NCBI GenBank assembly: GCA_025454255.1
Contig: JALOOU010000005.1
Location: 3,045-67,044 of the forward strand
DNA length: 64,000 nucleotides
Source of the DNA: Desulfobacterales bacterium
GTDB lineage: Bacteria; Desulfobacterota; Desulfobacteria; Desulfobacterales; SpSt-501
Direction: 5' to 3'
Shown here: positions 21,406 through 46,260 of the stretch, piece after piece
Layout: each line of letters begins with the position of its first letter
Position numbering within the stretch: position 1 is the first letter of the stretch
The notes under the pieces: model-generated
What the model was told of the DNA's origin: nothing
The model's database searches: none
The model's input: only the letters and a program-made list of their open reading frames with translations
Position numbers and translations under genes: made by a program

Positions 21406-21595
21406 TGCTGGCTTTCTATCTTGGCCTGTAACGCGGCTGCCGGTGCCGGTTTCCTTTTCCGAGATGGGAAGCGGCGAGGGGCATGATCTCTTGGCGTAAC
21501 CCGGAATCCATCCCGCCGAAGCTTGTTCACGGTTGCGAAACTGCCTGACGCACCCTCCCATGTGTGATTCGCAGATGGCTCACAGGGAATTTTGA

Positions 21596-24500
21596 ATGCA
21601 GGATATCGATTGGAACGACTTGGCCCGACGGGCCGCTTTCGTGGGGGTGGATGTCGGGTCGCTGTCGGTCAAAGCCGCCGCCGTCGCGCCCGGCGGCGAG
21701 ATGGTCTGGTCCTTGAAGCGGCCCCACCAGGACGATGCCCTGGAGATGGTGGAGGATCTGGAGCGCCGGTGCCGCTTGAGCGGAATCGCCTTCGGGGTCA
21801 CCGGCCGTCTGAAGGCGGCGGAGGGGCGGCGGCCCCTGGATTCGGTCCTCTGCCTGCACGCGGCCGCCAGGCATCTGCACCCGTCGGCGACCAACATCCT
21901 GGAAATCGGCGCGACGCACTACTGCCGGGTGCGGCTGGACCGCAGCGGCGGCATCCAGTCCATTCAAACCAACCCGATCTGCGCAGCGGGCACCGGCTCC
22001 TTTCTGGACGCCCAGGCGCAACGGATGGGGCTGGCCCATGACGCCCTCGAGTTCGCAGGGATAGAAGCGGACCCGCCGGGAATCGCGACCCGCTGCGCGG
22101 TGTTCGCCAAGAGCGATCTCATCCACCGGCAGCAGGAGGGGTACGACATACAGGCCCTCTGGTCGGGCCTCTGCCGTGGCTTGGCCGAGGGGCTTCTCCG
22201 CGCGCTTACGCACGGCAGCCCGATGCGGGGGGAGGTGCTGTTGTGCGGCGGGGTCGCGCTGAATCGCACGTTTGTCGCCTGGCTGCGGAGCTCGTTCGAC
22301 GGCAATGGAAACAGAGCCTCCGTCACCGTTCTCCCGCAGCCCGAACTCGCCGCCGCGGTGGGGGCGGCGCTTCTCGGCCGCAACGGGAACGGCTTTCACC
22401 GGCGGCCCGTCCAAGCGACCCCCCAGACCTCCCGCACGCGCAGGCCGGCCCTGGCGCTGACGCGATCCAGCCGCGTCCGATACCGGCCTTTGAACTTCCG
22501 CAGCGATCATCTTCAAAACGAAATCACCGTCCACCGCCTGCCCCAGGGGCCCCCGGAGGAGACGCCGCTGTTCCTGGGAATCGACATCGGCTCAACCAGC
22601 ACCAAGCTGGCGTTCGTCGATGCGTCGGGCAGCCTGCTGCTGGACATTTACCGCCGCACCCAGAGCGACCCCGTCCAGGCGACCCGGCATCTGCTGAGCG
22701 CCGCCCGGGCCTGTTTCCAGCAATTTCGATGGGACCCCGTCGTGGCCGGCGCCGGGACCACCGGCAGCGGCCGCAGGCTCATCGGCGAGATCATCGGGGC
22801 CGATCTGATCGTCAACGAAATTTCGGCGCACGTGGCCGGCGCCGTGCGAATCGAGCCGGGGGTCCAAACGATCTTCGAAATCGGCGGCCAGGACGCCAAG
22901 TACATGCGCGTCAGCAACGGCCGCATCGTCGACGCCAACATGAACTACGTCTGCGCCGCCGGGACCGGGTCCTTCATCGAGGAGCTCTGCTCCACGCTCG
23001 GCTACCGCGTCGAGGAGCTCGGCGAGGAGTTGCTGGGCGTCGAGCCGCCCTACATCAACAGCCGCTGCACGGTGTTCATGGAGCAGGACATTCACGCCCT
23101 GCTGCAGGAGCGCGTCCCCCGCCGGGAAGCGGCCGGCGCCATCGTCTATTCGGTCATCGAAAACTACCTTCACCGCGTGGTCGGCAAACGGCCGGTGAAT
23201 GGGCCGCGCGTCATGTTCCAGGGGGCGACCGCGCGCAACATCGCCTTGTCGGCCGCCATCGAGCGCCTGCTGCAGCGGGAGGTGGTCGTATCGCCCTATC
23301 CCCACGCCATGGGCGCCTACGGGGCGGCCTTGCTGGTGCAATCCTCGCCGCCGGATGGAGCCTCGAAATTCAAAGGGCTCGATCTGGCATCGCGGCGCAT
23401 CGAAATCGAAAAGCAGACCTGCGGCGGCTGCCGCAACCGCTGCGAGCTGACGCGGGCCGTCATCGAGGATGAACCGCGGCAGCCGCTGTGGGGAATGAAA
23501 TGCGGGCGCGACGAGACCGGCGGAACCCACAACGAATTGGCGGCCTACGAGCTCTTTCGAAAGCGGCAGGAGCTGGTCCGGCCGGCCCCTGCGGCTGCAA
23601 AACGCCCCTCCTCGCCCAAACGCCTCCTCCTGCCGCTCGCGCTCTCCGCCTATTCGCTCGGCCCGTTCTGGGCCGAGTTTTTCAGCCGCATCGGACTCGA
23701 GCTTGCCGCGGGGCCGCCGACGGACGAACGCTGCCTGCAGTCCGGCCGACAAGTGGCGGCGTCCGAATTCTGCCTGCCGGTCAAAACCGCCCTCGGCCAT
23801 GCCGCTCAGTGCCTTGAACACACCAGCGACCCGCTGTTCGTGCCGCATTTGATTGCCGACTACAAGGTCGCAGGGACCACCCAGACCCGGTTCTGCCCCT
23901 ATCTGGAGGTCTTGCCCTCTCTCATCCGGCCGATGGCTGATAAAAAGGGCGGCGCCGAGGCCCGGATCCTAGCGCCGATCATCGACCTGCGGCTGCCCGA
24001 TTCGAAAAACGCCCAGGCGCTCATCGACAGCCTGCGCCCCCTTGCTTCCATCAGGCAACGAGATGCCGTGCAAGCCCTGCAGCACGCCCATCGCATCCGC
24101 CGGCAGCAGCGGGAGAAAATCGAGGCTGCCGGCCAGACGCGCTGGTCGAGCCTGCGCTCATCCGGCCGGCCGGCCGTGGTCGTCATCGGCCGCCCCTACA
24201 ACACGCTCGACCCCTTTCTCAGCCAACGCCTGCCCTACGAGATCGCCGCAGCCGGGATCGACGTGCTGCCCATGGACGGGCTCGCCTTCCGGCCGGAGCT
24301 GCTCAAGGGGTATTTTTCCAATCTCTTCTGGTCCTACGGCCAGCGGATCGTATCGGCCCTCATCCAGATCGCGCAAACCGACGGCCTCTACCCCGTGTAC
24401 CTGTCCAGCTTCGGCTGCGGGCCGGACAGCTTCATCCTCTCCTATGCCGAAACCATCATGGGCGACAAGCCGCTGTTGATCCTGGAGCTCGACGAGCATG

Positions 24501-25819
24501 GATCGAGCGGCGGGTACCTGACCCGGCTGGAGGCTTTCCTGGAGGTGGTCAAGGCGGACAACTCCAGGCGGCGGCCGGCGGCCGGGTCGGCGCCGTGGCG
24601 GCCGCCGGCGGAAGCCCCGACCCCAGCGGACATCAAGAAACGAAGGCTGTGCGTGCCGCATATGCACCCCACCGGCAGCCGGCTGCTGGCAGCGGCCCTG
24701 CGCGGCGAGGGGTTCAACGCCGTGGAGCTTCCCGTCGAGGACGACACGGCCTATGCCGAAGGCCGCAAATGGGCCAGGGGTTCGGAGTGTCTGCCGGCTC
24801 CTCTGACCCTTGGCAGCTTCCTGAAGCATTGCGGGGAGCAGCGCCGTAAAGGGGAAGACCCGAATACGGGGCTGGCCCTCTTCATGCCCACCTCCGACGG
24901 TCCCTGCCGCTTCGGCCAGTACTGCGCCCTGGACCGAATCATACTGGATGGCGTCGGCTGCCGGGGCCTGCCGATCTTGTCGCCCAGCTCGGAAAACGCC
25001 TATTACGGCATCGACCAGAAGATATTCGAATACATCCTCCTGGCCGACATCCTGTTCAAGCTGCGCTGCCGGGTCAAGCCCCGGGAGAAAACCCCGGGGG
25101 ACACCGAGGAAGCCCTTGATTTGTGGATGAAAAAAGCGGAGCGTGAGATCGAACAGCGGCGCATGCGCCTGAACGCCTTCCTGCCGGAGGCGGTGCGCGC
25201 GTTCCAGCGCATCCCGGTCGAGACCTCCCCCCGGATTCTCGTCGGGGTGGTGGGGGAGATCTACGTGCGCTGCCACGCCTTCGCCAACCGCGGCCTGGTC
25301 GACACCATCGAGCAGCTGGGGGGCGAGGCCTGGGTGGCCCCGGCCACGGAGTGGATCATGTACACCGCCTGGGTGGAGCGCTACCGCTTGAAGCGCAGCG
25401 GCATGGGCCCCTGGCAGGCCGCAACGCTTGCATTGAAGTGGCGCTACATGCAGCGCAGGGAGCACGCGGCTTACCGCCTGGCCGCAGCGCTGCTGTCGGA
25501 TCGCCGCGAGCCCTCTGTCGATGAAATCATTGCCGCCGGGCGTAAGTTTATACCCCCTGATTTCGAAGGCGAATCCATTCTGACCCTGGGGCGCGCCATG
25601 CTCTTCAAGCGCGACGGTGTCGGGCTGATCGTCAACTGCGCCCCCTTCGGCTGCATGCACGGCAACATCACCGCGACGCTTTTCAGCCAGGCGGCCGACG
25701 AATTCCACGCCCCGGTCGTCAACATCGCCTACGATGGGGTCGGAAACGCCAACTCCGCCGTGGAGACGTTCATGGAAGCGGCATGGCGCAACATGAAACC
25801 TGATCGCGGAACCCTCTGA
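21596..25819 (+). CDS. Fused BCR/HAD-family enzyme (PlsA/PlsAR/GeR-like), paralogue 1: two BcrAD/BadFG-type activase ATPase modules, a Cys cluster, and DUF2229/HgdB-like dehydratase-type domains
   Basis: 1407 aa. Module 1 has GVDVGSLSVKAAAV, NPICAAGTGSFLD and TRCAVFAKSDLIH, but EIGATHYC replaces the EIGGQD motif. Module 2 is intact: GIDIGSTSTKLAFV, FEIGGQDAKYMRV, NYVCAAGTGSFIEE, SRCTVFMEQDIHA. A Cys cluster follows, CGGCRNRC...KCG (nt 23420-23503). The C-terminal ~750 aa has VVVIGRPYNTLDPFLS and RILVGVVGEIYVRCHAF segments typical of the activase-associated domains. Confidence 0.8.
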   Translation: MQDIDWNDLARRAAFVGVDVGSLSVKAAAVAPGGEMVWSLKRPHQDDALEMVEDLERRCRLSGIAFGVTGRLKAAEGRRPLDSVLCLHAAARHLHPSATNILEIGATHYCRVRLDRSGGIQSIQTNPICAAGTGSFLDAQAQRMGLAHDALEFAGIEADPPGIATRCAVFAKSDLIHRQQEGYDIQALWSGLCRGLAEGLLRALTHGSPMRGEVLLCGGVALNRTFVAWLRSSFDGNGNRASVTVLPQPELAAAVGAALLGRNGNGFHRRPVQATPQTSRTRRPALALTRSSRVRYRPLNFRSDHLQNEITVHRLPQGPPEETPLFLGIDIGSTSTKLAFVDASGSLLLDIYRRTQSDPVQATRHLLSAARACFQQFRWDPVVAGAGTTGSGRRLIGEIIGADLIVNEISAHVAGAVRIEPGVQTIFEIGGQDAKYMRVSNGRIVDANMNYVCAAGTGSFIEELCSTLGYRVEELGEELLGVEPPYINSRCTVFMEQDIHALLQERVPRREAAGAIVYSVIENYLHRVVGKRPVNGPRVMFQGATARNIALSAAIERLLQREVVVSPYPHAMGAYGAALLVQSSPPDGASKFKGLDLASRRIEIEKQTCGGCRNRCELTRAVIEDEPRQPLWGMKCGRDETGGTHNELAAYELFRKRQELVRPAPAAAKRPSSPKRLLLPLALSAYSLGPFWAEFFSRIGLELAAGPPTDERCLQSGRQVAASEFCLPVKTALGHAAQCLEHTSDPLFVPHLIADYKVAGTTQTRFCPYLEVLPSLIRPMADKKGGAEARILAPIIDLRLPDSKNAQALIDSLRPLASIRQRDAVQALQHAHRIRRQQREKIEAAGQTRWSSLRSSGRPAVVVIGRPYNTLDPFLSQRLPYEIAAAGIDVLPMDGLAFRPELLKGYFSNLFWSYGQRIVSALIQIAQTDGLYPVYLSSFGCGPDSFILSYAETIMGDKPLLILELDEHGSSGGYLTRLEAFLEVVKADNSRRRPAAGSAPWRPPAEAPTPADIKKRRLCVPHMHPTGSRLLAAALRGEGFNAVELPVEDDTAYAEGRKWARGSECLPAPLTLGSFLKHCGEQRRKGEDPNTGLALFMPTSDGPCRFGQYCALDRIILDGVGCRGLPILSPSSENAYYGIDQKIFEYILLADILFKLRCRVKPREKTPGDTEEALDLWMKKAEREIEQRRMRLNAFLPEAVRAFQRIPVETSPRILVGVVGEIYVRCHAFANRGLVDTIEQLGGEAWVAPATEWIMYTAWVERYRLKRSGMGPWQAATLALKWRYMQRREHAAYRLAAALLSDRREPSVDEIIAAGRKFIPPDFEGESILTLGRAMLFKRDGVGLIVNCAPFGCMHGNITATLFSQAADEFHAPVVNIAYDGVGNANSAVETFMEAAWRNMKPDRGTL

Positions 25820-25822
25820 CCG

Positions 25823-27055
25823 ATGGAGCGCATGCGCAGCAAATCCGAAGTCGATACCGCTTTGATCTATTTGGCAGGGGAAGAGCTCTGCGGTTTCAAT
25901 CCCTCATTGCAGCAGATCGCCGGTTTGCCGCTCCTGCAGCGCCAGCTTCTCTGGCTGGCCAGGCACGACATCCGCACCGTTCATCTGATGGCCGCCCCCC
26001 CACAGGTGCCGGACTTAGAGGCTCGCCTGCACGGATGGCGCCGGCGACGCTCCATGCCGGAGGTGATCGTGGGGGGTGAGCCGCCTCGCAAAGCGCAGGG
26101 GAAGGCGGTCGTAGTGGACGGCCGCTTCCTGCATCACCCGGACCTGCTGCGGCACGCGCTGGCCGCCGAGGGGGAGTTTGCCTACGTCGACGGTCAAGGC
26201 GGGTCATGCGGCCTGGGCATCGTCGATCTTCAGAAGGCGGTCGGCCCAAACACTTTTCAATACCTTCCCAAGAACCCGATTCCAATAGATCTTTTCGCCT
26301 GCCGGCTCATCGACGCCCGGCAGGCCGGGCAGGCCGAAACCAAACTGCTGCGAAGCTTCATCAAGCCGACCGACGGTTGGTTTTCGAAGAGGATCAATCG
26401 ATCGGTTTCGCTCGCCATCACGCGAAAAATCGCGCCCCTGCCCCTGACGCCCAACATGATATCCGCCTTTGCCCTGCTGGTGGGGATCGGCTCCGGCTGG
26501 AGCGCCGCGCAGGGAAGCTGGGCCTGGCTGGCGGTCGGCGGGCTTCTCTATCAGGCCGCCAGCATCCTCGACGGGGTGGACGGGGAGCTGGCGCGGGCAA
26601 AACTGCTCTACTCAAAAATCGGCGAATGGATGGACAACGTTTGCGACGACCTGACCAATATCCTTTTTATTGCGGGGGTCACGATCGGGGTCTACCGCAG
26701 TTCGCTCGATCCGTTCTGGACGACCCTCGGCTCTCTATCGTTGGTCGTCTATGGGGCAACGATCGTCATCATGTACGGCAATCTGATCGCAAACAACCGC
26801 AAAGCCTCGCTTTTGGCCTTCCAGGAGAACATCCGCAGGCCCGGCTACCGCCCGGGGAGGATAACTTCATGGCTGGTCGCGCTGCAGCCTTTCATCAAAC
26901 GGGATTTTCACGGATACGCCATGATGGCTGCCGGCATGCTCGGCCTCGCCAAGCTCATCCTGGCCGGTTGGCTGATCGGCTCCGTCCTCACCTTGGGGTT
27001 CGTCTGGTCGGAGGTAAAGCGCCCGGCCGCCGGAGGCTCCTTCTGGAAAGACTGA
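25823..27055 (+). CDS. CDP-alcohol phosphatidyltransferase with N-terminal degenerate nucleotidyltransferase-like domain (IPCT/DIPPS-like architecture)
   Basis: 410 aa, starting 3 nt after the previous stop. The C-terminal membrane domain has the full signature DGVDGELARAKLLYSKIGEWMDNVCDD (DG-x2-AR-x8-G-x3-D-x3-D, about nt 26569-26650). The N-terminal ~190 aa has an NTP-transferase-like layout (ALIYLAGEELCGF...IAGLPLLQRQLLWLARHDIRTVHLM) but lacks the GxGxR loop. The linker KPTDGWFSKRINRSVSLAITRK resembles bifunctional IPCT/DIPPS proteins. Confidence 0.75.
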   Translation: MERMRSKSEVDTALIYLAGEELCGFNPSLQQIAGLPLLQRQLLWLARHDIRTVHLMAAPPQVPDLEARLHGWRRRRSMPEVIVGGEPPRKAQGKAVVVDGRFLHHPDLLRHALAAEGEFAYVDGQGGSCGLGIVDLQKAVGPNTFQYLPKNPIPIDLFACRLIDARQAGQAETKLLRSFIKPTDGWFSKRINRSVSLAITRKIAPLPLTPNMISAFALLVGIGSGWSAAQGSWAWLAVGGLLYQAASILDGVDGELARAKLLYSKIGEWMDNVCDDLTNILFIAGVTIGVYRSSLDPFWTTLGSLSLVVYGATIVIMYGNLIANNRKASLLAFQENIRRPGYRPGRITSWLVALQPFIKRDFHGYAMMAAGMLGLAKLILAGWLIGSVLTLGFVWSEVKRPAAGGSFWKD

Positions 27056-27078
27056 GCTGAAACGGAGAGGGAACCGAA

Positions 27079-27795
27079 ATGGCATTTAAGCTGAAGGACG
27101 TCTGCACGGTCTTCAACATTGTTCTGTCGATTTATGCGGTGGTGCTTTCGTTTGCAGGACAGCTCGGCCTCGCGGCCTGGGTCATCTTCATCGCCTGGTT
27201 CATGGACGGGCTCGATGGACTGATCGCCAGGTGGACCAGGACCGGGAACGAATTCGGCGTGCATTTCGACAACCAGGCGGATCTGTTCATCTACACCGTC
27301 GCGCCGGCGTTCTATGCCTTCGCGGTGTATCGGGACGCCCACTATCTTTTGGGTATCGCGATCTGCTTTGCCGTCATCACGGTGGGATGCATCCGTCTGT
27401 CGCGGTTCAACGTCAAGCCGCTCATCTACCCGGGGTTCTGGATCGGCTACCCGCGCTCGGCGCTGGGCGTGCACATCATCTTTTTGCTGAATTCAAAGTT
27501 GTTTGCCGTGCATCAGCCCTACGTAGCCGCGGCGGTGATGCTGCTCGTTCTGACCGCGCTCAACCTCTCCTACATCCCCTATCGCAACCACAAGCGCAAG
27601 TTCACGCGCTTCGAGTGGGGGGTGTGCATCTTCTGCTGGGTGGTCTGGCCGATCAGCTATTTTTTCGGCTACTTCTGGGACACGGCGCTCTTCGGCAGCA
27701 CCGTCTACGCGCTGCTGCCCTTCACCCCGCTGCACGCCCGATACCGCGAGCCCATCCGGCGCTACATCGAGGAGTGGAGGGCCGCCACCCGCTGA
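27079..27795 (+). CDS. CDP-alcohol phosphatidyltransferase, phosphatidylserine-synthase-like (small PssA type)
   Basis: 238 aa, with RBS GGAGAGGG 8 nt upstream. The signature is DGLDGLIARWTRTGNEFGVHFDNQAD (about nt 27204-27285). The N-terminus KLKDVCTVFNIVLSIYAVVL and TVAPAFYAF match the short PssA-like layout. Confidence 0.8.
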   Translation: MAFKLKDVCTVFNIVLSIYAVVLSFAGQLGLAAWVIFIAWFMDGLDGLIARWTRTGNEFGVHFDNQADLFIYTVAPAFYAFAVYRDAHYLLGIAICFAVITVGCIRLSRFNVKPLIYPGFWIGYPRSALGVHIIFLLNSKLFAVHQPYVAAAVMLLVLTALNLSYIPYRNHKRKFTRFEWGVCIFCWVVWPISYFFGYFWDTALFGSTVYALLPFTPLHARYREPIRRYIEEWRAATR

Positions 27796-27813
27796 AGCGT
27801 TTCCAATCTTTCG

Positions 27814-28563
27814 TCAATTCGCGTAACGGAAAAATGCAAACTGTCTCTCCGCATGGGCGAGCATCTCGGGCGTATCGATATCCTGCCAATACCCGTCGAC
27901 CGCAGCCGCCCGCATGCGGCCGGCATCGGCCAGGCGCTGGATGCCATCCGATAGGCTTGCATCCCCCTTTTCCGCCAGCACGGCAGCCAAAGCGGCAAAA
28001 AGCCCGGGCGTGGCCGAAAAGACCCCGATGTCCACGCAGTTGAACTCATCGATTTTTTTGCCGATACGATGGATGCGCCCGTTCGCCTGCTGCACCTTGG
28101 TGGCATCCTCCAGATCGAAAACCCGCTCCAGCCTGTGGTCGACCAGCAGGGTCGCCCCGCCGTCCGGCGGCGGGTGGGCGGGCAGGCCGGTCATGATGTC
28201 GTCGCTGACCAGATGGTCCCCCATCGCCAGGAAAAAATTTTCCGTGACGTGATGTTGGGCGCACAGGACCGACACTCCGTTGGACCTCCTGTAACGCGGG
28301 TTGAACACGAATTCGATTCGGGCGCCGCCGGAATAGGCGCGTGCGACCGCCTCGCGGACACCATCGGCCGAATGCCCGAGAACCACAATGATCCGCCGGC
28401 ATCCGGCAAGCTCGAGCCCCCGGATGGAATGCCAGATCAGCGGTTTTTCTTGGACGGGTATCAGCAGTTTGGAAAGCCCCGGGCATTCGGCCCCCGCCAG
28501 CCGGACCCCGCAGCCGGCAGCCAGGACAACCCCGGTCGAGATTCTCTTCGAATATGCCCGCAA
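27814..28563 (-). CDS. Nucleotidyltransferase (sugar- or alcohol-phosphate cytidylyl/uridylyltransferase family)
   Basis: 249 aa with an intact N-terminal loop VVLAAGCGVRL (GxGxRL). It has the usual beta-alpha layout (KLLIPVQEKPLIWHSIRGLELAGCRRIIVVLGH) and RBS GGGGGAGGAG. It converges on the CDP-alcohol transferase genes with an 18-nt gap. Confidence 0.8.
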   Translation of the reverse strand: MRAYSKRISTGVVLAAGCGVRLAGAECPGLSKLLIPVQEKPLIWHSIRGLELAGCRRIIVVLGHSADGVREAVARAYSGGARIEFVFNPRYRRSNGVSVLCAQHHVTENFFLAMGDHLVSDDIMTGLPAHPPPDGGATLLVDHRLERVFDLEDATKVQQANGRIHRIGKKIDEFNCVDIGVFSATPGLFAALAAVLAEKGDASLSDGIQRLADAGRMRAAAVDGYWQDIDTPEMLAHAERQFAFFRYAN

Positions 28564-28822: not shown

Positions 28823-30400
28823 GTGATCGTGCAACGTAGGGCCGTAATCATAGGAGCTGGTCCGGCCGGGCTGACCGCAGCTTACGAACTTCTGGAAAAA
28901 ACCGACATCAAGCCGATTATAGTTGAGGCGACCGGAGAGATCGGCGGGATCTCGCAGACCGTAAACTACAAGGGCAACCGGATCGATATCGGGGGGCACC
29001 GCTTCTTCTCGAAATCCGACCGGGTGATGGCATGGTGGCAGAATATTTTGCCCCTGCAGGGCAAACCCGCGAGGGACGACCTGGCCCTGGGTCGCAAGGT
29101 TCCCCTGTCGGATCAACCGCACGCCCCCGATCCGGAACGCGAGGATCGGGTGATGCTCGTTCGTTCCCGCCTGTCGCGCATCCTGTTTCTTCGACAGTTG
29201 TTCAATTATCCCATCAAGTTGAATCTCGACACGGTCAAGAAGCTCGGCTTGAGGCGGCTTGCCAGAGTCTGTTGGGCGTACTCCAAAATCAGGCTCTCCC
29301 CGCGGCGCGAAGAAAAAAACCTGGAGGATTTTTTCATCAACCGGTTCGGGCGGGAGCTGTATCAGCTGTTTTTCAAAGACTACACCGAAAAAGTCTGGGG
29401 AGCCGCATGCCGTGAAATCAGACCGGAGTGGGGGGCCCAGCGGGTGAAGAACCTGTCGGTTTCCAGGGTCCTGGCCCATGCGATCCGATCCGTCTTTTTG
29501 AAACAGCAATCGATTGCACAAAAAGAGCTTGATACAAGCCTGATCGGCCGATTCCTCTACCCCAAGCTGGGTCCGGGGCAGATGTGGGAGGAGGTCGCCA
29601 AGCGCATCAGCGCCAAGGGGGGGGAGCTCCACCTGCGCCACAAGGTGATCGGCTTGAAACAAAAAAACGACCTCATCGTTGGCGCGCTGGCGATGGACCG
29701 ATCGGCGGGAAAAACCCGTCTCTGGTCCGGAGATTATTTTTTTTCCTCCATGCCTTTGAGAGATCTCATACTAGGCTTTGGCGAGGAGGTGGACCCTGAA
29801 ACCAGGCGGGTTGCAGCCGGCCTGAGGTACCGAGACTTCATTTCGGTGGGAATTCTTGTGCCGCGGCTCAAGATGCGCAACGAAAGCCCGATCCCGACCA
29901 TCAACGGCGTGATACCGGACAACTGGATCTACATCCAGGAGCCGGGGGTCAGGCTCGGAAGGCTGCAGGTGTTCAACAACTGGAGCCCCTACATGGTGCG
30001 GGACCCGCAAACGGTGTGGCTGGGGCTGGAGTACTTCTGCAACGAAGGAGACGAGGTGTGGAGCAAACCCGACGCCGAGATCATCCGCCTGGCCATCGAG
30101 GAGCTGCTGCGCATCGGGGTGATCGAAAAAGTGAGCGTCTTGGACAGCACCCTGATCCGGATGCCCAAGGCCTACCCGGCCTACTTTGGAACCTATGACG
30201 AACTCCACGTGTTGAGAAAATTCACCGACCGGTTTGCCAATCTGTACCCCATTGGGCGCAATGGGATGCACCGCTACAACAATCAAGACCATTCGATGCT
30301 GACCGCCATGCGGGCGGTCGAGACGATCCTCCAGGGTGTTTCGCACAAGGACCCGATCTGGCAGGTGAATGCCGAGGAGGATTACCACGAAAACGAATGA
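28823..30400 (+). CDS. NAD(P)/FAD-dependent oxidoreductase (amine-oxidase / protoporphyrinogen-oxidase-like fold)
   Basis: 525 aa with a GTG start. The dinucleotide-binding N-terminus is [18 protein letters not shown]...[13 protein letters not shown]...[11 protein letters not shown]. The substrate is not inferable from sequence. Confidence 0.8.
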
Positions 30401-32048
30401 GGCTCGCGTGGAGGCTCTTGCTGAAACAAGGCAGGTGCCGGCCGCTGCATCATCCCGATTCCCGGGCGGGTGGCTCTGCCTGACGCTCGTCGTCTATGCG
30501 GCGGCATCCATCGTCGGCATCCTGCACCATGAGCCCTGGCGCGATGAAGCCCAGGCATGGTTCATCGCGAGGGACTGCCCGGATCTTTCTTCCCTGATTC
30601 GGGCAGCGGGCTACGAGGGGCACACGATCTTATGGCACCTCGTCCTGATGCCCCTGGCCCGATCGGGGCTTCCGTTTTTTTCGGCCGCCCTGGTGCACTT
30701 CGGGATCATCCTGGCGGCGCTTCTTCTGTTTTTGCGCCATGCGCCCTTTTCGCTCCACCAAAAGGCCCTTTTCGTTTTCGGCTACTATGTCTTGTACGAG
30801 TACAATCTTATCGTGCGAAACTACGCGCTTTCCGTCCTGGTCCTGTTCGCCCTCGCGTCGCTGCACCCCTTTCGTTTCAAGAAGCCGATAGCCTATGCGG
30901 CGCTGATTGCCCTTCTGGCGAACACCCATCTGCTTGGGCTGGTGATCGCGCTGCTCCTCGCGCTGACTCAGCTGGCTGATGTCAGGCTCTCCGATAACCG
31001 CCGCGGCGGCTGGCGGCGGGGGCTGGCCGTTTTCTTGATTGCCGCGGGCATTGCCGCCTCGGTCTACCAGCTTTGGCCGCCGGCGGATGTGATGCCGCCG
31101 ACGGCCCACCGCGGCGGAGTCGATCCCCCCCTGCTCAATTTCAGCCTTTCGATCGGCCACCTGAGCGTCATTACGCGCTCGCTCGTCGGGGCCTTTCTCC
31201 CGCTCCCGGAGCCCGGCCCCCATTTCTGGAACAGCCGGCTGGTTCACGTCCCTCTCCAGGCGGCCGGCTTGCTTGACGGTTCGCCGTGGGCGGTTCGATG
31301 GGCATATGGCACCCTGCTGGTGTTGCCCGCGCTGCTGTCGGTGCCGTTTTTGGCCCGCAAAACCATCCCCGGGCTGTTTTATCTTGGTTCGGTCTGCTCG
31401 CTGCTGGCCCTTTTTTTCCTGGTCTACGAGGGCGGACTCAGACATTACGGCTTTATCTTCCTGCTGTTCATCTTCGCGCTGTGGATCAGCCGCGACTATC
31501 CCGAGAATCGGCTCGCCGCGCGCCCCTTTATGGATGGGTTTAATTCGAAAAACCGCAACCGGATGGTGACCGCTTTGCTTCTGGTCCATGTGGCCGCAGC
31601 GGCGGTCGCTTTTCACCACGATATCAAATACGATTTTTCATCCGGCAGGAGGGCGGCCGCATTCCTTCAGGACGAAGGGCTGATCAACGCGCGCACGTTC
31701 ATCGCCGCCTACCCGTCCAAAATCGCCTGCTCAGCGCTCGTGCACATCAAAGACCCCGCTGCCGCCGTCTTCATGGTCGAGTACCAACGGATGGGCGCCC
31801 ACATGGTCTGGAACAAGGAGTACATGGACAACCAGGCGCTGCCCGTTGCAACCGTCATCGAGAGGGTCGATGCGGCGGTTGCGGGCAAAGCGTATGAGCG
31901 GGTCGTTCTCATCACCAACTCGAAGACCGCCGATCGGCAGCTGCACGAGCGCTACCAGCTGATCGCCTCCTTCCCTGAAGCAGTGGATCGGCAGGAGTCC
32001 TTTCGCATCTATGAGCTTCGGGCCCCCCTGAATCAAAAACCGGATTGA
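30369..32048 (+). CDS. Polytopic membrane protein, candidate GT-C-fold (PMT_2/ArnT-like) glycosyl- or lipid-transferase
   Basis: 559 aa (start uncertain: ATG 30369 overlaps the previous gene by 32 nt, and in-frame GTGs exist at 30408 and 30429). It has about 11 hydrophobic helices. The first-loop acidic motif [16 protein letters not shown] resembles the DE/DxD loop of GT-C enzymes. A soluble C-terminal ~150 aa follows. Confidence 0.55.
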
Positions 32049-35000
32049 GGTTCTTTTTCCGCCTTAAGCAACCGCATCTGATTTTTCCTGCCCCGGCGGG
32101 TGGTTCTGAATGAGCGGACCTGGTGGGCGAAGGCCTCGAGCCGGTTGACCGTGTGGGTCGATTTCAACCCCTCGAAGACCAGGCTGCAGAAGGGCTTGTC
32201 GTCGATATCCTTGCGGATGCTTTTCGACAGCGAGGCCGTCACCGTCCCCAGCATGCAGTTGTGGCACATGACGTTGATGATCCCATCGGCCCCCGCCCGG
32301 TGCAGCTCCTCGATCCGGTTCAGGTTCAATGAGAGCACCTTGTCGATCCAGAAGCTGACGTAGCGGGAGGAGGCCCGCAGGACATCCGGGTAGTGCCGCT
32401 CCTGGGGGGTGCGGATGCTGTCCGGGAAACAGCGGTCAATGAGCCGCCGGCCGCTTTTAAGCGCCGGGATCAGGGCCTTTGCGGCGGCGGCGGCGGCCGG
32501 CCGGCCCTCTTTGAAAAGCTCGGCATGCCGCTGTTCCATGGCCAGAAAGGAGACGTCGATCACCGAGCCCGAGCTCCAGACGTCGAAACCCATTTGGTTG
32601 AGCTTCGCGTACAGCTGGTCGTTGGAGTGCGGGTTGACCCGGGTGAACACATCCCCCACGATCCCGACCCGGGGCCGCGTGCCGACCGCCCGCCTCAGGG
32701 GAGTCGCCCGGAAGCGCGCCGCCGACGTGTTGAGGGCCCGAAAAAACCCGCCCGTCGCCAGGCCCTTTTCGAGGTCGGAGAGGATCTCGCGATAAACGCG
32801 CCGGACAGAGCCCTTTTCGGCCTCCCGGGGCTCGATTTCGGTTTTCCACTTGTAGAACCGGTCGATGGCATAGAGGCCGAGCGCCAGGCGCACCATGTAG
32901 GAGCGGCCGAGCTCCTTCATGTTGGTGGGATCGGTGATGTTCATGACGGTCACGCCGGCAAGGCCCACTCTTTCCAAGATGAGATGAAGCGCCAGAGGAT
33001 ATTGCGGCAGCAGGCAGGGACCGAAATAGGAAGGGCCGAAATAGCAGGCCTCCTCCGGGACAAAGCCCGGCCGCTCGGCGGCTTTCAGAAGGTCCCCGGC
33101 AAATGCGATGAACGGGTGGCACTCCCGGCCGTAGGCGTGCTTGAGTCCCAGGTTCCAGCTGGCGTCGTCGGTGGGGGGCAAGAGCACTGTCTTGCACCCG
33201 GAGGCCTTCAAAGCCCCGGTGATGGCATACGCGTGGTCCATGAACGCGGGGACGTAGTAGGTGTACTCCCTGAGGGGCCGGCGCGGCTTGCCCGGGTCCC
33301 TTCCGGTCAGGACCGGGGGCGGCGGGGAGCGGCGGATTTTAAAATTGCGCGCAAACGCCTCGATTCGGGTCACCAGGCCGGCCTCGGCCTGGTGATCGTC
33401 CAGCTCCAGGAGAAGGTGGGGAACCCCCTTCAGTTCGGCCTCCAGATACTGGTCCACGAACGCATCCGGCCCGCATCCGAAGTTGGTGACGATGACGGCC
33501 CCGAGATGGGGGTGGTGTTTGAGGGCTCTCGCCGCCTGGACCAGCTTTCGGCCGTATCCCCAGCGGATCCGCTCCCAGAGGGGCGGCAGCGGCTCCCGCT
33601 CCAGGGGCAGGAAATCGAACGGGATCGGTTCGACCCCGAGCCCCTTCAGCCGGCGGGCCAGATTGAGGCTGAGATGCCTGTCGGCGGTGTTGTAAGGCCG
33701 GCCGAGGAGGACCGCGCCCCGTTTCCCGTCTTTGGTCAAACGGCTCAAAAACGCCTGGCCTTCGGCGCGGCAGCGTGCCCGGAACGCATCCTGTGCCGCC
33801 TGCGCAGCCCTGCCGGCGCTTTCGACCTCGGCGCGGCGGACCCCGAGCGCCTTCGCGAGCGTCTCTGCCCAATGGGCGGCCTCGCGCTCCACCGGGTACT
33901 CGAAGGTGAGGATTTCGGCCTCGGGCGCTACATTTTCCCGCACCACATACGGGGCGGCCTGGGTGTAGGGGCAGGCGTAGCGCTCGCTGCTTTCGCCGGG
34001 GGGAATGAACAGGCGCAGATGGGGAATGAAAATTTGGCGGATCCCTTTTCCGATCAGCTCGTAGACATGCCCGAAGAGGATTTTGACGGGGTAGCAGAAC
34101 TCCGCCGGCACGCGCCGCAGGCCGGCGGCGACGATCGAGCGGTTCGTGGCTCCCGAAAAATGGGTCCGGTAGCCGAGGTGTCGGAAAAAAGTGCCCCAGA
34201 ACGGAAGATAGTCGCACATGGTCAGGGTCAGGGGAATGCCGACCTCGCCCCTGAAGCAGGTGTCGGAGGGCTTGGCCACTGAATCGTGCAGGAGACGCTC
34301 GCGAATGGCAAAGGCATCTTCTCCCGCAGCCGGATGGAGCGCGGCGCCTTCGAATCGACCGCACACGCCTCCGAAATAGGCCGGCCGCCTGTTGCCGGAG
34401 GCGACCTTGCGAATGGCGCAGCTGTTTTCGCAGCGGCCGCATGCAACGCTCTCGACCCGGCCCTCCAGCTGCAGCTTGTCCAGCCGCAACGGTTGGCCGG
34501 TGATGCCCTGGGAGAGATCCTCCAGCGCCGCAAATGCCGCGCCCAGGGCCCCGGAGAGCTCCGGGCGGGGGTGGCGGTGGATGGTCTTGGCGAGAAGGTT
34601 TTCAAAGACCGCGTGCACCGCGCGATTCCGGGCGACCCCGCCCTGGAAGACGATTTTTTCCCCCACCGGGTTCGAACCCACGACTTTTTCCAAGTAGTTG
34701 CGGCCGATGGCATAGGCCAGCCCCGCGCACAGGTCCGCACCCGATGCGCCCCGCTGCAGGTAATGGACGAGATCGGAATCCATGAACACCGTGCAGCGGC
34801 TTCCCAGCACGGCCGGGGCCGATGATCGAAAGGCGGCAGCTGAAAACTCCTGCGCGATCCCGATCCCGAGCCGGCCGGCCTGCTCCTCGAGGAAAGCGCC
34901 CGTGCCGGCGGCGCAGGCGCGGTTCATGCGAAAGGTCTCGATTTCACCGGCCGCCATCCGGATGAATTTGGAGTCCTGGCCGCCGATCTCGATGACCGTG

Positions 35001-36250: not shown

Positions 36251-36285
36251 TGGGCGGGTTGAAACGGCGGCGCGAGTCGAGCGCG

Positions 36286-37227
36286 CTATCTCGAAGGGTT
36301 CGACCTTACAGGGGCTGCGGCCGCCGGCGCGCCGTGCCAACCGGCCAGCAGCTCCTCGATCTGCCGGTCCTTCTCGGCCCACAGATCGTTCAGCCATTGT
36401 TGAAATTGCGCGCGGAACCCCCCGTCGCCCAGCGGGTCGCCCATCAGTTCAGGGCCCACCGGCAGGCAGCGCACCCGGACCTTGATCTCTTCGATATTTC
36501 CGCACAACAGCGCCCAGAAACCGTGGACCCCGGCCGGGTAGACGATGGTCACATCCAGGATCCGATGAATCTTATCGCCCATGGCGTGCAGCACGGCCGC
36601 TATGCCGCCGGCTCTCGGCCTGAGCAGATGGGTGTAAGGGGACTGCTGCTGCCGGTGCTTCTGGGCGGTGAAGCGTGTGCCTTCGACAAAATTCATGATG
36701 GAGATCGGAATCTGCTGGAATTTGGTGCAGGCCCGGCGCGTGATCTCCAAATCCTTGCCCCGCAGGTGAGGCTTGCGCTGGAGCTTGGCTTTCGAATAGC
36801 GCTTGATGAACGGAAAATCCAGCGCCCACCAGGCCTGCCCCAGGACCGGCAGCCAAAAGAGCTCCTTTTTGATGAAGAATTTCAGGAAGGGGATCTTGCG
36901 ATGAAAAATCCGCTGCAGCACGACAATGTCGGTCCAGGACTGGTGGTTGGCCAACACCAGGAACCACTGCGACGGATCCAGGCTTTCGGCCCCCTGCACG
37001 TCCCAGCGCGTGCCATTGGTGATCCTCTGGTTCAGGTTGTTGCCCCAGACCCATTTTTCGGCGATGGCATTGAGCACCCGGCTGCAGCCCGTGCGCCAGC
37101 CGTGGATGGGGACCAGCGCCTTGAGCGCCGCCATGATGAAAAGCGCCGTGCACCAGACAGCGGTGTTCACCGCAAAAAGAAGAAACGACACGATGCCCCG
37201 AACGGGCCCGGGCAAGGATTTGATCAT
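36286..37227 (-). CDS. PlsC-superfamily lysophospholipid acyltransferase, YihG-like
   Basis: 313 aa. It has an N-terminal TM anchor, the HX4D motif in LANHQSWTDIVVL, then FVEGTRFT, and a C-terminal FQQWLNDLWAEKDRQIEELL that matches my memory of E. coli YihG. RBS is GAGGTG. Confidence 0.8.
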   Translation of the reverse strand: MIKSLPGPVRGIVSFLLFAVNTAVWCTALFIMAALKALVPIHGWRTGCSRVLNAIAEKWVWGNNLNQRITNGTRWDVQGAESLDPSQWFLVLANHQSWTDIVVLQRIFHRKIPFLKFFIKKELFWLPVLGQAWWALDFPFIKRYSKAKLQRKPHLRGKDLEITRRACTKFQQIPISIMNFVEGTRFTAQKHRQQQSPYTHLLRPRAGGIAAVLHAMGDKIHRILDVTIVYPAGVHGFWALLCGNIEEIKVRVRCLPVGPELMGDPLGDGGFRAQFQQWLNDLWAEKDRQIEELLAGWHGAPAAAAPVRSNPSR

Positions 37228-46254: not shown

Positions 46255-46260
46255 GGCCGG

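What the first reader, a model, noticed from the sequence alone, without database searches (positions are those of the whole stretch)
25823..28563. Head-group module: degenerate-NTase/CDP-alcohol transferase fusion, PssA-like transferase and an intact stand-alone nucleotidyltransferase
The 410-aa protein has the architecture of bifunctional IPCT/DIPPS enzymes (cytidylyltransferase fused to a CDP-alcohol transferase). Its N-terminal domain, however, lacks the GxGxR nucleotide loop (it reads IYLAGEELCGF). An intact nucleotidyltransferase (VVLAAGCGVRL) is encoded convergently 0.75 kb away. A second, short PssA-like CDP-alcohol transferase follows immediately. Both transferases keep the complete DG-x2-AR-x8-G-x3-D-x3-D signature. 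Together this looks like a self-contained route that activates an alcohol phosphate with CTP and transfers it in two steps, or onto two acceptors. No inositol-phosphate synthase or other obvious alcohol-phosphate source lies in the window, so the head group is unknown.
Basis: partly seen in the sequence, partly recalled or inferred. Interest (0 to 1): 0.65.

Follow-up and report, generated by a model that had tools for sequence, protein, structure and literature searches.

The report
CDP-inositol head-group genes inside ether-lipid cluster
Three adjacent genes in an uncultured sulfate-reducer-like bacterium most likely make CDP-inositol and attach polar head groups to ether lipids, which offers a testable genetic origin for the inositol diether lipids found in anoxic waters.

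Summary
All three genes and every quoted motif are real. The 410-aa protein (P1) is an AF2299/DIPPS-type CDP-alcohol phosphotransferase. Its N-terminal domain has a nucleotidyltransferase fold (AlphaFold model plus Foldseek; hhalign 94.7%) but has lost the GxGxR loop and the catalytic Lys. A dead "cytidylyltransferase-like" domain of this kind is already known from A. fulgidus AF2299.

The stand-alone 249-aa enzyme does not group with sugar-1-P nucleotidyltransferases. It is 53% identical to the Rhodothermus marinus enzyme encoded in the BEPIS–MIPS–IPCT operon. Its next-closest relatives all sit directly beside inositol-phosphate synthase genes. The head group is therefore probably inositol phosphate, not unknown.

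The 238-aa protein (P2) is a divergent PssA/PSS-type enzyme that scores below the PssA cut-off. It probably uses CDP-diacylglycerol rather than the cytidylyltransferase product.

The module is co-transcribed with, and flanked by, two Ger/PlsA-type ester-to-ether reductases. The order Ger–P1–P2 is invariant in five related loci.

Best reading: a CDP-inositol route to inositol-phosphate ether lipids, which is a new variant of the R. marinus IPCT/BEPIS pathway. P1's acceptor, P2's role and the source of inositol phosphate (no MIPS in the window) remain inferred.

The parts
21596..25819 (+). Ger1: Ger/PlsA-type glycerol ester reductase homologue (1407 aa). It is the first gene of the Ger1-P1-P2 operon.
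   Evidence: It carries 2x PF01869 BcrAD_BadFG plus PF09989 DUF2229. This is the 'BBD' architecture that defines Ger (PMC13159169). Its stop codon lies 3 bp before the P1 start. Orthologues sit immediately upstream of P1 in L001, L003, L004, L007 and L086.
25823..27055 (+). P1: AF2299/DIPPS-type CDP-alcohol phosphotransferase with an N-terminal pseudo-cytidylyltransferase domain (410 aa).
   Evidence: PF01066 scores 39 bits. The NCBIfam IPCT/DIPPS model matches the DIPPS half at E 1e-23. PDB sequence hits are AF2299 at 7e-20 and AfIPCT/DIPPS at 5e-16. The AlphaFold2 model has pLDDT 92. Foldseek gives AF2299 TM 0.78.
25823..26356 (+). P1 N-terminal domain (aa 1-178): nucleotidyltransferase fold, catalytically degenerate.
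   Evidence: Foldseek hits RmlA, MurU and TmIPCT. hhalign against the IPCT family gives 94.7% probability, E 5.6e-8. The GxGxR loop and the Lys are lost and this segment is not conserved within the family, whereas the Asp (D99) is kept. Myxococcota relatives still score on PF12804 at 28-35 bits.
25865..25897 (+). Degenerate nucleotide-loop segment IYLAGEELCGF (aa 15-25).
   Evidence: Read directly from the sequence. It aligns to LAAGxGxRL of intact NTases with a 7-residue deletion. The segment varies among family members.
26378..27022 (+). P1 membrane domain: a juxtamembrane helix plus six transmembrane helices.
   Evidence: Secondary structure of the model. The domain superposes on AF2299, DIPPS and PIPS. 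The conserved IKRDF motif (aa 358-362) matches AF2299 ITRDF and AfDIPPS KRDE.
26570..26647 (+). P1 CDP-alcohol phosphotransferase signature D-x2-DG-x2-AR-x8-G-x3-D-x3-D (aa 250-275).
   Evidence: Regular-expression match. These columns are invariant in an 85-sequence alignment.
27079..27795 (+). P2: divergent PssA/PSS-type CDP-alcohol phosphatidyltransferase (238 aa).
   Evidence: PF01066 scores 59 bits. TIGR00473 pssA scores 80.3 bits, below the 107 cut-off. M. jannaschii PSS matches at 1.4e-8 over aa 5-194. The family is small, closed and always 238 aa. It always follows P1.
27205..27282 (+). P2 CDP-alcohol phosphotransferase signature (aa 43-68).
   Evidence: Regular-expression match.
27814..28563 (-). 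P3: stand-alone IPCT-type cytidylyltransferase (249 aa), the probable CTP:inositol-1-phosphate cytidylyltransferase.
   Evidence: The NCBIfam IPCT half matches at E 1e-33. The top three PDB hits are all IPCTs: 2xme, 4mnd and 4jd0. It is 53% identical (E 2e-75) to the R. marinus NTase of the BEPIS-MIPS-NTase operon. Its next-best relatives are all adjacent to MIPS.
28498..28524 (-). Intact nucleotide-binding loop LAAGCGVRL (aa 14-22) of P3.
   Evidence: K32 and D116 are also retained; they correspond to TmIPCT K26 and D112 (PMC12275187).
28564..28822 (.). AT-rich divergent intergenic region between P3 (-) and the UGM-like gene (+). It probably holds both promoters.
   Evidence: Sequence read. 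This assignment is an inference; no promoter scan was run.
28823..30400 (+). UDP-galactopyranose-mutase-like flavoprotein (525 aa). It is an accessory gene, present in only some versions of the cluster.
   Evidence: NF005546 scores 820 bits. The best PDB hit is UGM 4dsg at 9e-12. The gene is present in L001 and L004 and absent from L003, L007 and L086.
30369..32048 (+). Polytopic membrane protein (559 aa) of unknown family, paired with the UGM-like gene.
   Evidence: No Pfam, NCBIfam or PDB hit. Hydropathy shows about 10 hydrophobic segments. Orthologues occur in L001 and L004.
32033..36397 (-). Ger2: second Ger/PlsA-type reductase paralogue (1454 aa).
   Evidence: It has the same BBD architecture. 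It is 28.6% identical to Ger1 over the full length. Its own orthologues occur in L001, L003, L004, L007 and L086.

Best explanation
The three genes form the polar head-group module of an ether-lipid gene cluster. The cluster belongs to an uncultured Desulfobacterota bacterium related to Desulfatibacillum or Syntrophobacteraceae.

Step 1 is inferred from orthology-level similarity. P3 is a CTP:inositol-1-phosphate cytidylyltransferase that makes CDP-inositol. The inositol-1-phosphate must come from a MIPS gene encoded elsewhere in the genome.

Step 2 is inferred from homology and gene linkage. P1 is an AF2299/DIPPS-type CDP-alcohol phosphotransferase. It takes CDP-inositol as donor and transfers inositol phosphate to an alcohol acceptor. 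Its N-terminal cytidylyltransferase-like domain is catalytically dead because the GxGxR loop and the Lys are lost. That domain is retained as a structural cap over the active site, and possibly as a docking site for the free IPCT.

Step 3 is the least certain. The acceptor is a glycerolipid core (diacyl-, alkylacyl- or dialkyl-glycerol), so the product is an inositol-phosphate lipid such as PI-AEG or PI-DEG. This makes P1 the functional analogue of R. marinus BEPIS.

P2 is a divergent PSS-type enzyme that uses a CDP-diacylglycerol-type donor to install a second head group, serine-like. It works in parallel with P1 rather than downstream of P3.

Ger1, co-transcribed with P1 and P2, and Ger2 convert the ester bonds of these lipids to ether bonds.
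For: - **Genes, motifs and folds are shown.**
- **P3 is IPCT-type.** The NCBIfam IPCT half matches at E 1e-33, against 3e-22 for the best sugar NTase. The three best PDB hits are the A. fulgidus and T. maritima IPCTs. P3 is 53% identical (E 2e-75) to the R. marinus NTase in the BEPIS-MIPS-NTase operon, which is the IPCT of Jorge et al. 2015 as summarised in PMC4587543. In a ranking over 88 loci, every NTase scoring 200-257 bits against P3 abuts MIPS. The catalytic R, K and D are retained.
- **P1 uses the IPCT product.** P1-like genes lacking GxGxR sit in MIPS-IPCT-P1-like operons in Myxococcota. Fully fused IPCT-CDP-AP genes also sit next to MIPS. Acidobacterial P1-like genes are linked to an IPCT-like NTase and a Ger homologue.
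- **The product is a lipid.** Ger1-P1-P2 is an invariant, tightly spaced triad in the window and five related loci. A YihG-type LPAAT precedes the cluster in L086. The Myxococcota operons continue with an MMPL lipid exporter and a GT4, and carry no phosphatase. The R. marinus CDP-inositol pathway makes dialkylether glycerophosphoinositol.
- **Environmental fit.** PI-DEGs are abundant in euxinic waters (PMC12619533). Cultured D. alkenivorans, which has no close P1 orthologue among GTDB representatives, is reported to make only PE, PG and CL.
Against: - No MIPS lies in the window or within 10 kb in any close relative.
- P1 is much closer to AF2299 and DIPPS than to BEPIS. Profile scores are 112 and 100 bits for AF2299 and DIPPS; similarity to BEPIS is 30% over 115 aa.
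- AF2299 and DIPPS are said not to process lipids, and the 6-TM architecture is associated with soluble acceptors (PMC4634129). P1 shares their conserved R-D motif.
- In sister loci L003 and L004 the IPCT-type NTase is replaced by a different 235-aa NTase. L004 also adds a HAD phosphatase, an aminotransferase and an IolG-like oxidoreductase. The activated alcohol may therefore vary within the family.
- COG1213 cytidylyltransferases can use phosphocholine, phosphoglutamine or phosphoglycerate.
- P2 scores below the PssA cut-off, as do its nearest relatives, so its acceptor is unknown.
- No biochemical data exist for any member of the P1 or P2 families.
Confidence: 0.55

Rival explanations
1. 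P1 is a DIPPS- or AF2299-like synthase of a soluble phosphodiester. It would join CDP-inositol to inositol-1-P or glycerol-3-P, giving DIP-phosphate or glycerophosphoinositol-phosphate as a compatible solute. A phosphatase would then remove the extra phosphate. On this view the link to lipid genes is only regulatory.
For: The closest solved and curated relatives are AF2299 and IPCT/DIPPS. P1 shares their 6-TM architecture and R-D motif. Clarke et al. state that neither AF2299 nor AfDIPPS processes lipids. L004 carries a HAD hydrolase directly after P2. IPCT/DIPPS genes have been proposed as osmo- or piezo-adaptation genes in non-thermophilic deep-sea archaea (titles).
Against: No phosphatase gene lies in the core cluster of the window, L001, L003, L007 or L086, nor in the Myxococcota operons, which instead carry MMPL and GT4. 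The stop-to-start coupling with Ger1 is invariant. In the one bacterium where the fate of CDP-inositol was traced, it went into lipid.
Confidence: 0.17
2. P1 and P2 act in sequence. P1 first builds a soluble inositol-phospho-alcohol from CDP-inositol. P2, a PSS-type enzyme with a CDP-diacylglycerol donor, then phosphatidylates it. The result is a lipid with a compound head group carrying two phosphodiesters.
For: P1 and P2 are always adjacent and co-directional, and the P2 family exists only alongside P1. P1 looks like an enzyme with a soluble acceptor. P2 looks like a CDP-DAG-dependent enzyme whose acceptor is uncertain, since it scores below the PssA cut-off.
Against: Acidobacterial and Myxococcota versions have P1-like and IPCT genes but no P2, so P1 makes a useful product on its own. 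No such lipid is known. An intermediate phosphatase would probably be needed and is absent from the window.
Confidence: 0.1
3. P3 activates an alcohol phosphate other than inositol-1-phosphate. Candidates are an aminocyclitol phosphate, glycerol phosphate, phosphoglycerate or phosphocholine. P1 would then install that head group.
For: No MIPS lies in the window or in close loci. The COG1213 family has several known substrates. Sister clusters use a different NTase, and L004 adds an IolG-like dehydrogenase, a class-III aminotransferase and an ATP-grasp enzyme, which suggests a modified cyclitol.
Against: P3 is 53% identical over its full length to the R. marinus IPCT, and every relative at about 50-55% identity sampled is adjacent to MIPS. 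CpgD, the enzyme with a changed substrate, is only about 24% identical to an IPCT.
Confidence: 0.12
4. P3 serves the neighbouring glycan genes (three GT4s, a Wzx-like flippase, the UGM-like enzyme and the membrane protein). It would supply CDP-inositol, or a nucleotide sugar, to decorate a polysaccharide. On this view it is unrelated to P1 and P2.
For: P3 is transcribed separately and divergently from the UGM-like operon. In L088 a TagF-like phosphotransferase and glycan genes sit directly upstream of MIPS-IPCT, and homologous TagF-like genes lie upstream of Ger1 in L001 and L003.
Against: The window has no homologue of that TagF-like gene. L086 and L007 keep P3 with P1, P2 and the Ger genes while lacking the glycan genes. 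P3 is not a sugar-1-P NTase by any comparison.
Confidence: 0.06

Closest known systems
AF2299 of Archaeoglobus fulgidus (PDB 4O6M, 4O6N, 4Q7C), a CDP-alcohol phosphotransferase with a cytidylyltransferase-like N-terminal domain
   Same: It is the best sequence and fold match to P1 (E 7e-20, profile 112 bits, Foldseek E 3e-14, TM 0.78). The two-domain layout is the same: a cytosolic cytidylyltransferase-like domain, a juxtamembrane helix and six TM helices. Both carry the full D-x2-DG-x2-AR...G-x3-D-x3-D motif and a shared xRDF motif.
   Different: Structure-based alignment identity is only about 20%. AF2299 is archaeal and was crystallised with CDP-glycerol, and its physiological function is unsettled. 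It is not known to be linked to Ger or IPCT genes.
Bifunctional IPCT/DIPPS (A. fulgidus AF0263, PDB 4MND; NCBIfam NF041135)
   Same: P3 matches the IPCT half (E 1e-33) and P1 matches the DIPPS half (E 1e-23). Foldseek gives E 1e-13 for P1. The logic is the same: a cytidylyltransferase feeds a CDP-alcohol to a membrane phosphotransferase.
   Different: In the window the active cytidylyltransferase is a separate gene on the opposite strand, and the fused domain is degenerate. Both proteins fall far below the equivalog cut-off (84 and 117 bits against 580). DIPPS makes a soluble thermoprotective solute, whereas the context here is lipid biosynthesis.
Rhodothermus marinus CDP-inositol pathway (MIPS, IPCT and BEPIS; Jorge et al. 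2015, as cited in PMC4587543 and PMC9246714)
   Same: P3 is 53% identical to the R. marinus IPCT. In both cases CDP-inositol is associated with ether-linked glycerolipids, and the head group rather than the lipid is the activated partner.
   Different: The R. marinus transferase BEPIS is a 311-aa protein without an N-terminal domain. It is only 30% identical to P1 over 115 aa. In R. marinus MIPS lies in the operon, whereas here it is absent. The window adds a PSS-like second transferase and two Ger reductases.
[quoted passage not shown] 2022)
   Same: The proposed chemistry is the same: an NTase makes CDP-inositol and a CDP-alcohol transferase makes a PI-type lipid without a PIP intermediate. 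The sister locus L004 also carries a HAD hydrolase.
   Different: The function of the Bacteroides cluster is itself unconfirmed. It is linked to MIPS and to sphingolipids, not to Ger or ether lipids. No degenerate NTase fusion has been described for it.
Phosphatidylserine synthase, class II (PssA; M. jannaschii PSS, PDB 7POW and 7B1K)
   Same: P2 aligns over aa 5-194 with MjPSS and its best NCBIfam models are PssA and archaetidylserine synthase. It has the complete catalytic motif.
   Different: P2 scores 80 bits against a cut-off of 107. Its nearest relatives (34-42% identity) are also sub-threshold, while canonical PssA proteins are more distant. The P2 family is confined to genomes that carry P1.

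Membership tests
CDP-alcohol phosphotransferase class I (PF01066) | Signature D-x2-DG-x2-AR-x7-9-G-x3-D-x3-D | tested here: met
   P1 aa 250-275 and P2 aa 43-68 match exactly. These columns are invariant in the 85-sequence alignment.
CDP-alcohol phosphotransferase class I (PF01066) | Pfam score above the gathering threshold, and six or more TM helices | tested here: met
   P1 scores 39 bits and P2 59 bits against a threshold of 22. The P1 model shows a juxtamembrane helix plus six TM helices.
Bifunctional IPCT/DIPPS (NF041135) | Whole-protein score at or above the curated cut-off of 580 bits | tested here: not met
   P1 scores 83.8 bits (DIPPS half only). P3 scores 116.8 bits (IPCT half only).
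Bifunctional IPCT/DIPPS (NF041135) | Catalytically intact cytidylyltransferase domain (GxGxR loop, Lys, Asp) fused to the transferase | tested here: not met
   The GxGxR loop is deleted or replaced, and the Lys is lost. Only the Asp (D99) is retained in the P1 family.
AF2299-type CDP-AP (cytidylyltransferase-like domain plus 6-TM transferase) | Two-domain fold superposable on 4O6M/4O6N | tested here: met
   Foldseek gives E 3e-14 and TM 0.78 normalised on the target, with about 400 aligned columns that include the N-domain.
AF2299-type CDP-AP (cytidylyltransferase-like domain plus 6-TM transferase) | Donor and acceptor specificity | not testable with these tools
   The physiological reaction of AF2299 is itself unsettled: CDP-glycerol was bound in crystals, and a role in PIP synthesis has been suggested.
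[quoted passage not shown] | Catalytic Arg, Lys and Asp (T. maritima R16, K26, D112) | tested here: met
   P3 retains R21, K32 and D116 (residue list from PMC12275187).
[quoted passage not shown] | Closest characterised relatives are IPCTs rather than sugar-1-P NTases | tested here: met
   PDB hits 2xme at 2e-21, 4mnd at 1e-20 and 4jd0 at 5e-12, against 7e-8 or weaker for sugar NTases. P3 is 53% identical to the R. marinus IPCT.
[quoted passage not shown] | Genomic linkage to myo-inositol-1-phosphate synthase | tested here: not met
   No MIPS lies in the window or within 10 kb in the close loci. All next-closest homologues (200-257 bits) are adjacent to MIPS.
[quoted passage not shown] | Formation of CDP-inositol from CTP and inositol-1-P | not testable with these tools
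   This requires an enzyme assay.
BEPIS (bacterial dialkylether glycerophosphoinositol synthase) | Orthology to the R. marinus 311-aa enzyme | tested here: not met
   P1 is 30% identical over 115 aa (E 1e-8). P2 is 32% identical over 57 aa. The proteins differ in length and domain layout.
PssA (TIGR00473 equivalog) | Score at or above the curated cut-off of 107 bits | tested here: not met
   P2 scores 80.3 bits. Its nearest relatives score 73-92 bits, and a canonical PssA scores 125 bits.
Ger/PlsA ester-to-ether reductases (context genes) | BBD architecture: two PF01869 domains followed by PF09989 | tested here: met
   Both giant proteins have two BcrAD_BadFG stretches plus DUF2229. The architecture is defined in PMC13159169. 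Direct comparison with the tested T. maritima and D. alkenivorans Ger sequences was not possible.

The most novel reading that the evidence does not exclude
The set of two Ger paralogues, P1, P2 and an IPCT is the genetic basis of the inositol-phosphate diether and acyl-ether lipids (PI-DEG and PI-AEG) that are prominent in euxinic waters and sediments and whose producers are unknown. Within this set, P1's dead cytidylyltransferase domain acts as a docking or channelling module for the free-standing IPCT. The two deeply diverged Ger paralogues supply the sn-1 and the so far unexplained sn-2 ether bonds.
Probability: 0.25. Interest if true: 0.75.

Novelty: new variant of a known kind. Interest (0 to 1): 0.55.

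Why it matters
Inositol phospholipids are rare in bacteria. The CDP-inositol (Kennedy-like) route has been demonstrated only in Rhodothermus marinus, where it makes a dialkyl ether lipid. This cluster physically links an IPCT-type cytidylyltransferase and an AF2299-type transferase to the Ger enzymes that make bacterial ether bonds, in mesophilic-type anaerobes.

It matters for three reasons:
- It gives a concrete and cloneable candidate pathway for the PI-DEG and PI-AEG lipids used as biomarkers of anaerobic bacteria.
- It suggests a physiological role for the AF2299-type enzymes, which have been solved structurally but remain functionally unassigned.
- It offers a pair of Ger paralogues with which to test how sn-2 ether bonds arise.

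The finding is incremental, not categorically new, because each component belongs to a known family.

Tried and rejected
- **SPT idea rejected.** I asked whether the class I/II aminotransferase at 10111-11304 is a serine palmitoyltransferase, which would have pointed to inositol sphingolipids. It is HisC-like.
- **TagF consumer rejected for the window.** I looked for a TagF-like consumer of the CDP-alcohol. Such genes exist in L001, L003 and L088, but the window has no homologue.
- **Antisense artefact.** A called 376-aa gene of L004 matched the window at 21530-22591 (-). This is the antisense strand of the Ger1 N-terminus and is an artefact of a high-GC antisense ORF, probably together with a frameshift in L004.
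- **Papers not held.** I tried to read the AF2299, DIPPS and IPCT structure papers to extract acceptor-pocket residues. They are not held, so the acceptor type of P1 could not be judged residue by residue.
- **Membrane protein unclassified.** Sequence search of the 559-aa membrane protein against the PDB found nothing.
- **No cultured host.** The genome-contig scan found no cultured organism with a close P1 orthologue. The best hit is an uncultured Desulfatibacillum MAG at 57% identity. No published lipidome could therefore be matched to the cluster.
- **No NTase tree.** I did not build an explicit NTase phylogeny, for lack of trustworthy outgroup sequences. A score ranking with gene context was used instead.

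Full report
**1. Observation**

The three ORFs exist exactly as described. P1 is at 25823-27055 (+, 410 aa), P2 at 27079-27795 (+, 238 aa) and P3 at 27814-28563 (-, 249 aa). Their third-position GC content (0.75-0.85) is that of real genes in this window. Each has conserved homologues.

The quoted motifs are all present:
- IYLAGEELCGF at P1 aa 15-25
- the full CDP-alcohol phosphotransferase signature at P1 aa 250-275
- the same signature at P2 aa 43-68
- LAAGCGVRL at P3 aa 14-22

Pfam places P1 and P2 in PF01066 above threshold and P3 in NTP_transf_3/NTP_transferase. P3 lies tail-to-tail with P2, 18 bp away. An AT-rich 259-bp spacer separates P3 from the next, divergently transcribed gene.

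**2. The 410-aa protein (P1)**

By sequence, only residues ~170-310 match known families. NCBIfam matches the DIPPS half of the bifunctional IPCT/DIPPS model (E 1e-23). In the PDB the best hits are AF2299 (E 7e-20) and A. fulgidus IPCT/DIPPS (E 5e-16).

An AlphaFold2 model built on 85 homologues is confident (pLDDT 92, pTM 0.90). It shows an alpha/beta domain (aa 1-177), a juxtamembrane helix and six TM helices. Foldseek against the PDB returns AF2299 first (E 3e-14, TM 0.78) and IPCT-DIPPS next (E 1e-13). After the PIP-synthase chimeras that carry the AF2299 domain come RmlA, MurU and the T. maritima IPCT (E 1e-4 to 1e-3). The N-terminal domain therefore has a nucleotidyltransferase fold.

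A profile-profile comparison confirms this independently. The N-domain family against the IPCT family gives 94.7% probability and E 5.6e-8. The alignment places a 7-residue deletion exactly at the GxGxRL loop.

Across the family this loop segment is not conserved, and the Lys of the PKPL motif is lost. The Asp equivalent to the catalytic Asp (D99) and the LPLLQR helix are retained. More distant homologues with an intact AAGxGSR loop do exist. Intermediate Myxococcota members still score on PF12804.

It is not unprecedented, however. [quoted passage not shown]

**3. The stand-alone nucleotidyltransferase (P3)**

P3's best NCBIfam match is the IPCT half of IPCT/DIPPS (E 1e-33), ahead of the best sugar-1-P enzyme (3e-22). 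Its three best PDB hits are the A. fulgidus and T. maritima inositol-1-phosphate cytidylyltransferases. Sugar NTases follow at 7e-8 or weaker. It keeps R21, K32 and D116, which correspond to the three critical residues of the T. maritima enzyme.

P3 belongs to a large family of ~250-aa stand-alone enzymes. One member, from Rhodothermus marinus, is 53% identical to P3 (E 2e-75). That gene lies in a CDP-OH transferase-MIPS-NTase operon. This is the BEPIS-MIPS-IPCT operon of Jorge et al. 2015, in which CDP-inositol donates inositol phosphate to dialkylether glycerol (as summarised in PMC4587543, and PMC9246714).

Two further homologues at ~54% identity, chosen only for contig length, start 0-4 bp after a MIPS gene. 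I ranked all NTases in the 88 fetched loci by score against P3. After P3's own orthologues (390-446 bits), every protein scoring 200-257 bits abuts MIPS.

Inositol-1-phosphate is the leading substrate. One caveat applies: the COG1213 family also contains phosphocholine, phosphoglutamine and phosphoglycerate cytidylyltransferases, although at much lower identity.

**4. The 238-aa protein (P2)**

P2 aligns over almost its full length with the M. jannaschii phosphatidylserine synthase. It is best matched by the PssA and archaetidylserine synthase models, but below the PssA cut-off (80 against 107 bits).

A word-indexed search found only 22 clusters, all at 64% identity or above, and the 19 full-length members are exactly 238 aa (18) or 240 aa (1). 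An exhaustive HMMER search found the next relatives at 34-42% identity. These too are sub-threshold for PssA, whereas a canonical PssA is more distant from P2.

PSS-type enzymes have two extra helices that enclose the acyl chains of CDP-DAG, and the archaeal enzyme is strictly serine-specific (PMC8633023). P2 is thus most likely a CDP-diacylglycerol-dependent enzyme with an uncertain small acceptor. It is not a second consumer of the P3 product.

**5. Context**

The module is embedded between two giant proteins: 21596-25819 (+) and 32033-36397 (-). Each has two BcrAD_BadFG domains plus DUF2229. This is the conserved 'BBD' architecture of Ger, the PlsA-derived glycerol ester reductase shown to convert sn-1 ester bonds to ether bonds (PMC13159169). 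The two are only 28.6% identical to each other, and each has its own orthologue in related loci.

Ger1 ends 3 bp before P1, and P2 starts 23 bp after P1. The same Ger-P1-P2 order, with overlaps or gaps of a few bases, recurs in five loci:
- L001 and L002 (JGI metagenomes)
- L003 (a Syntrophobacteraceae MAG)
- L004 (an ENA metagenome contig)
- L007 (an uncultured Desulfatibacillum MAG)
- L086 (an ENA metagenome contig)

L086 is a minimal version. It contains a YihG-type LPAAT, Ger, the IPCT-type NTase, P2, P1 and Ger. It lies next to the same TPR, HisC-like and LptFG genes as in the window.

The UGM-like flavoprotein and the 559-aa membrane protein are accessory, since only L001 and L004 carry them. 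Vicinamibacteria MAGs carry a P1-like gene (35-37% identity), a Ger homologue and an IPCT-like NTase together.

In Myxococcota, P1-like genes that also lack GxGxR follow MIPS and IPCT directly. They are themselves followed by an MMPL-family transporter and a GT4 glycosyltransferase, with no phosphatase. Fully fused IPCT-CDP-AP genes next to MIPS also occur.

**6. Mechanism**

Shown:
- gene structure, motifs and folds
- homology ranks and gene linkage

Inferred, in order of decreasing confidence:
- (a) P3 makes CDP-inositol.
- (b) P1 uses it as donor. This is the logic of the fused IPCT/DIPPS enzymes, and of the MIPS-IPCT-P1-like operons.
- (c) The acceptor is a glycerolipid, so the product is an inositol-phosphate lipid that Ger1 and Ger2 convert to, or that is built on, ether cores.
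- (d) P2 installs a second, serine-like head group from a CDP-DAG-type donor.

The dead N-domain probably retains the structural role seen in AF2299, where it packs on the TM2-TM3 loop and partly covers the active site. A docking role for the free IPCT is my speculation.

The main weakness concerns step (c). P1 resembles AF2299 and DIPPS far more than BEPIS. Those two enzymes, and 6-TM CDP-APs in general, are associated with soluble acceptors. A soluble phosphodiester product therefore cannot be excluded.

Several observations tip the balance to a lipid:
- the invariant operon with Ger
- the LPAAT in L086
- the MMPL and GT4 genes in the Myxococcota operons
- the absence of a phosphatase from the core cluster

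The absence of MIPS from the window, and the replacement of the IPCT-type NTase by another NTase in L003 and L004, keep the identity of the alcohol open to some degree.

**7. Comparison, novelty and relevance**

Each component belongs to a known family: AF2299-type CDP-AP, IPCT, PSS-like and Ger. The chemistry proposed is that of the R. marinus IPCT/BEPIS pathway, and of the unconfirmed Bacteroides vulgatus-type cluster.

Three things are new:
- The transferase is of the AF2299/DIPPS clade, with a pseudo-cytidylyltransferase domain, working beside a free IPCT.
- There is a dedicated PSS-like partner.
- The module is physically integrated with two Ger paralogues in anaerobic Desulfobacterota, with a related arrangement in Acidobacteriota.

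Literature searches found no description of such a cluster.

PE/PG/PI dietherglycerol phospholipids (PE-, PG- and PI-DEGs) are reported as the primary phospholipids in the euxinic Black Sea (PMC12619533). The cultured ether-lipid model D. alkenivorans is reported with PE, PG and CL head groups and no inositol lipid (PMC11181052). No close P1 orthologue was found outside uncultured lineages. The cluster is thus a plausible and testable source of PI-DEG and PI-AEG.

I rate it a new variant of a known kind, of moderate interest.

Noticed in passing
window 21596-25819 (+) and 32033-36397 (-): Two Ger/PlsA-type reductases flank the module. They are only 28.6% identical to each other, and each has its own orthologue in related loci. 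How sn-2 ether bonds form is described as enigmatic in the literature (PMC8788747), so a division of labour between sn-1 and sn-2 is worth testing.
   Followed up: partly
L004 11936-16673: A sister cluster inserts five genes between P2 and the UGM-like gene: a HAD hydrolase, a different 235-aa NTase, an ATP-grasp (RimK-like) enzyme, a class-III aminotransferase and a GFO/IDH/MocA oxidoreductase whose best hit is weakly IolG. This looks like a route to a modified, possibly amino-, cyclitol head group.
   Followed up: partly
L082 6780-14831; L054 6736-13432: Myxococcota operons run MIPS, IPCT, P1-like (degenerate NTase plus CDP-AP), an MMPL-family transporter and GT4. This suggests an exported, glycosylated inositol phospholipid.
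   Followed up: partly
window 28823-32048: A UDP-galactopyranose-mutase-like flavoprotein (NF005546, 820 bits; PDB 4dsg at 9e-12) overlaps by 32 bp a 559-aa protein with about 10 TM segments and no Pfam, NCBIfam or PDB match. The pair is conserved in L001 and L004. The membrane protein may be an undescribed glycosyltransferase.
   Followed up: partly
L088 5372-8741; L001 1808-3085; L003 3235-4365: A family of TagF-like (faint Glyphos_transf) proteins sits directly upstream of MIPS-IPCT in L088 and upstream of Ger1 in L001 and L003. This hints that CDP-inositol can also feed a polymer phosphotransferase. The window has no homologue.
   Followed up: yes
window 21527-22534 (-); L004 5582-6712: An antisense ORF within the Ger1 N-terminus matches a gene called in L004 (E 2e-47). 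In L004, Ger1 is called 320 aa short. This is most likely a frameshift or mis-call there, not a real antisense gene.
   Followed up: partly
window 12389-14992 (+): An 867-aa protein has only a weak central match to the alkaline-phosphatase superfamily (Metalloenzyme/Phosphodiest) and no NCBIfam hit. It lies between the TPR gene and the GT4/Wzx glycan genes.
   Followed up: no
window 43781-53118: There are two sets of circularly permuted ATP-grasp, alpha-E and transglutaminase genes, plus a 1131-aa transglutaminase-DUF2126 protein. This is a recurrent conserved operon of unknown function and is unrelated to the finding.
   Followed up: no
window 38478-41570 (+): A 1030-aa protein combines PPDK_N and PEP-utilizer mobile domains with a C-terminal stretch weakly similar to 3-keto-disaccharide hydrolase, which is an unusual fusion.
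   Followed up: no
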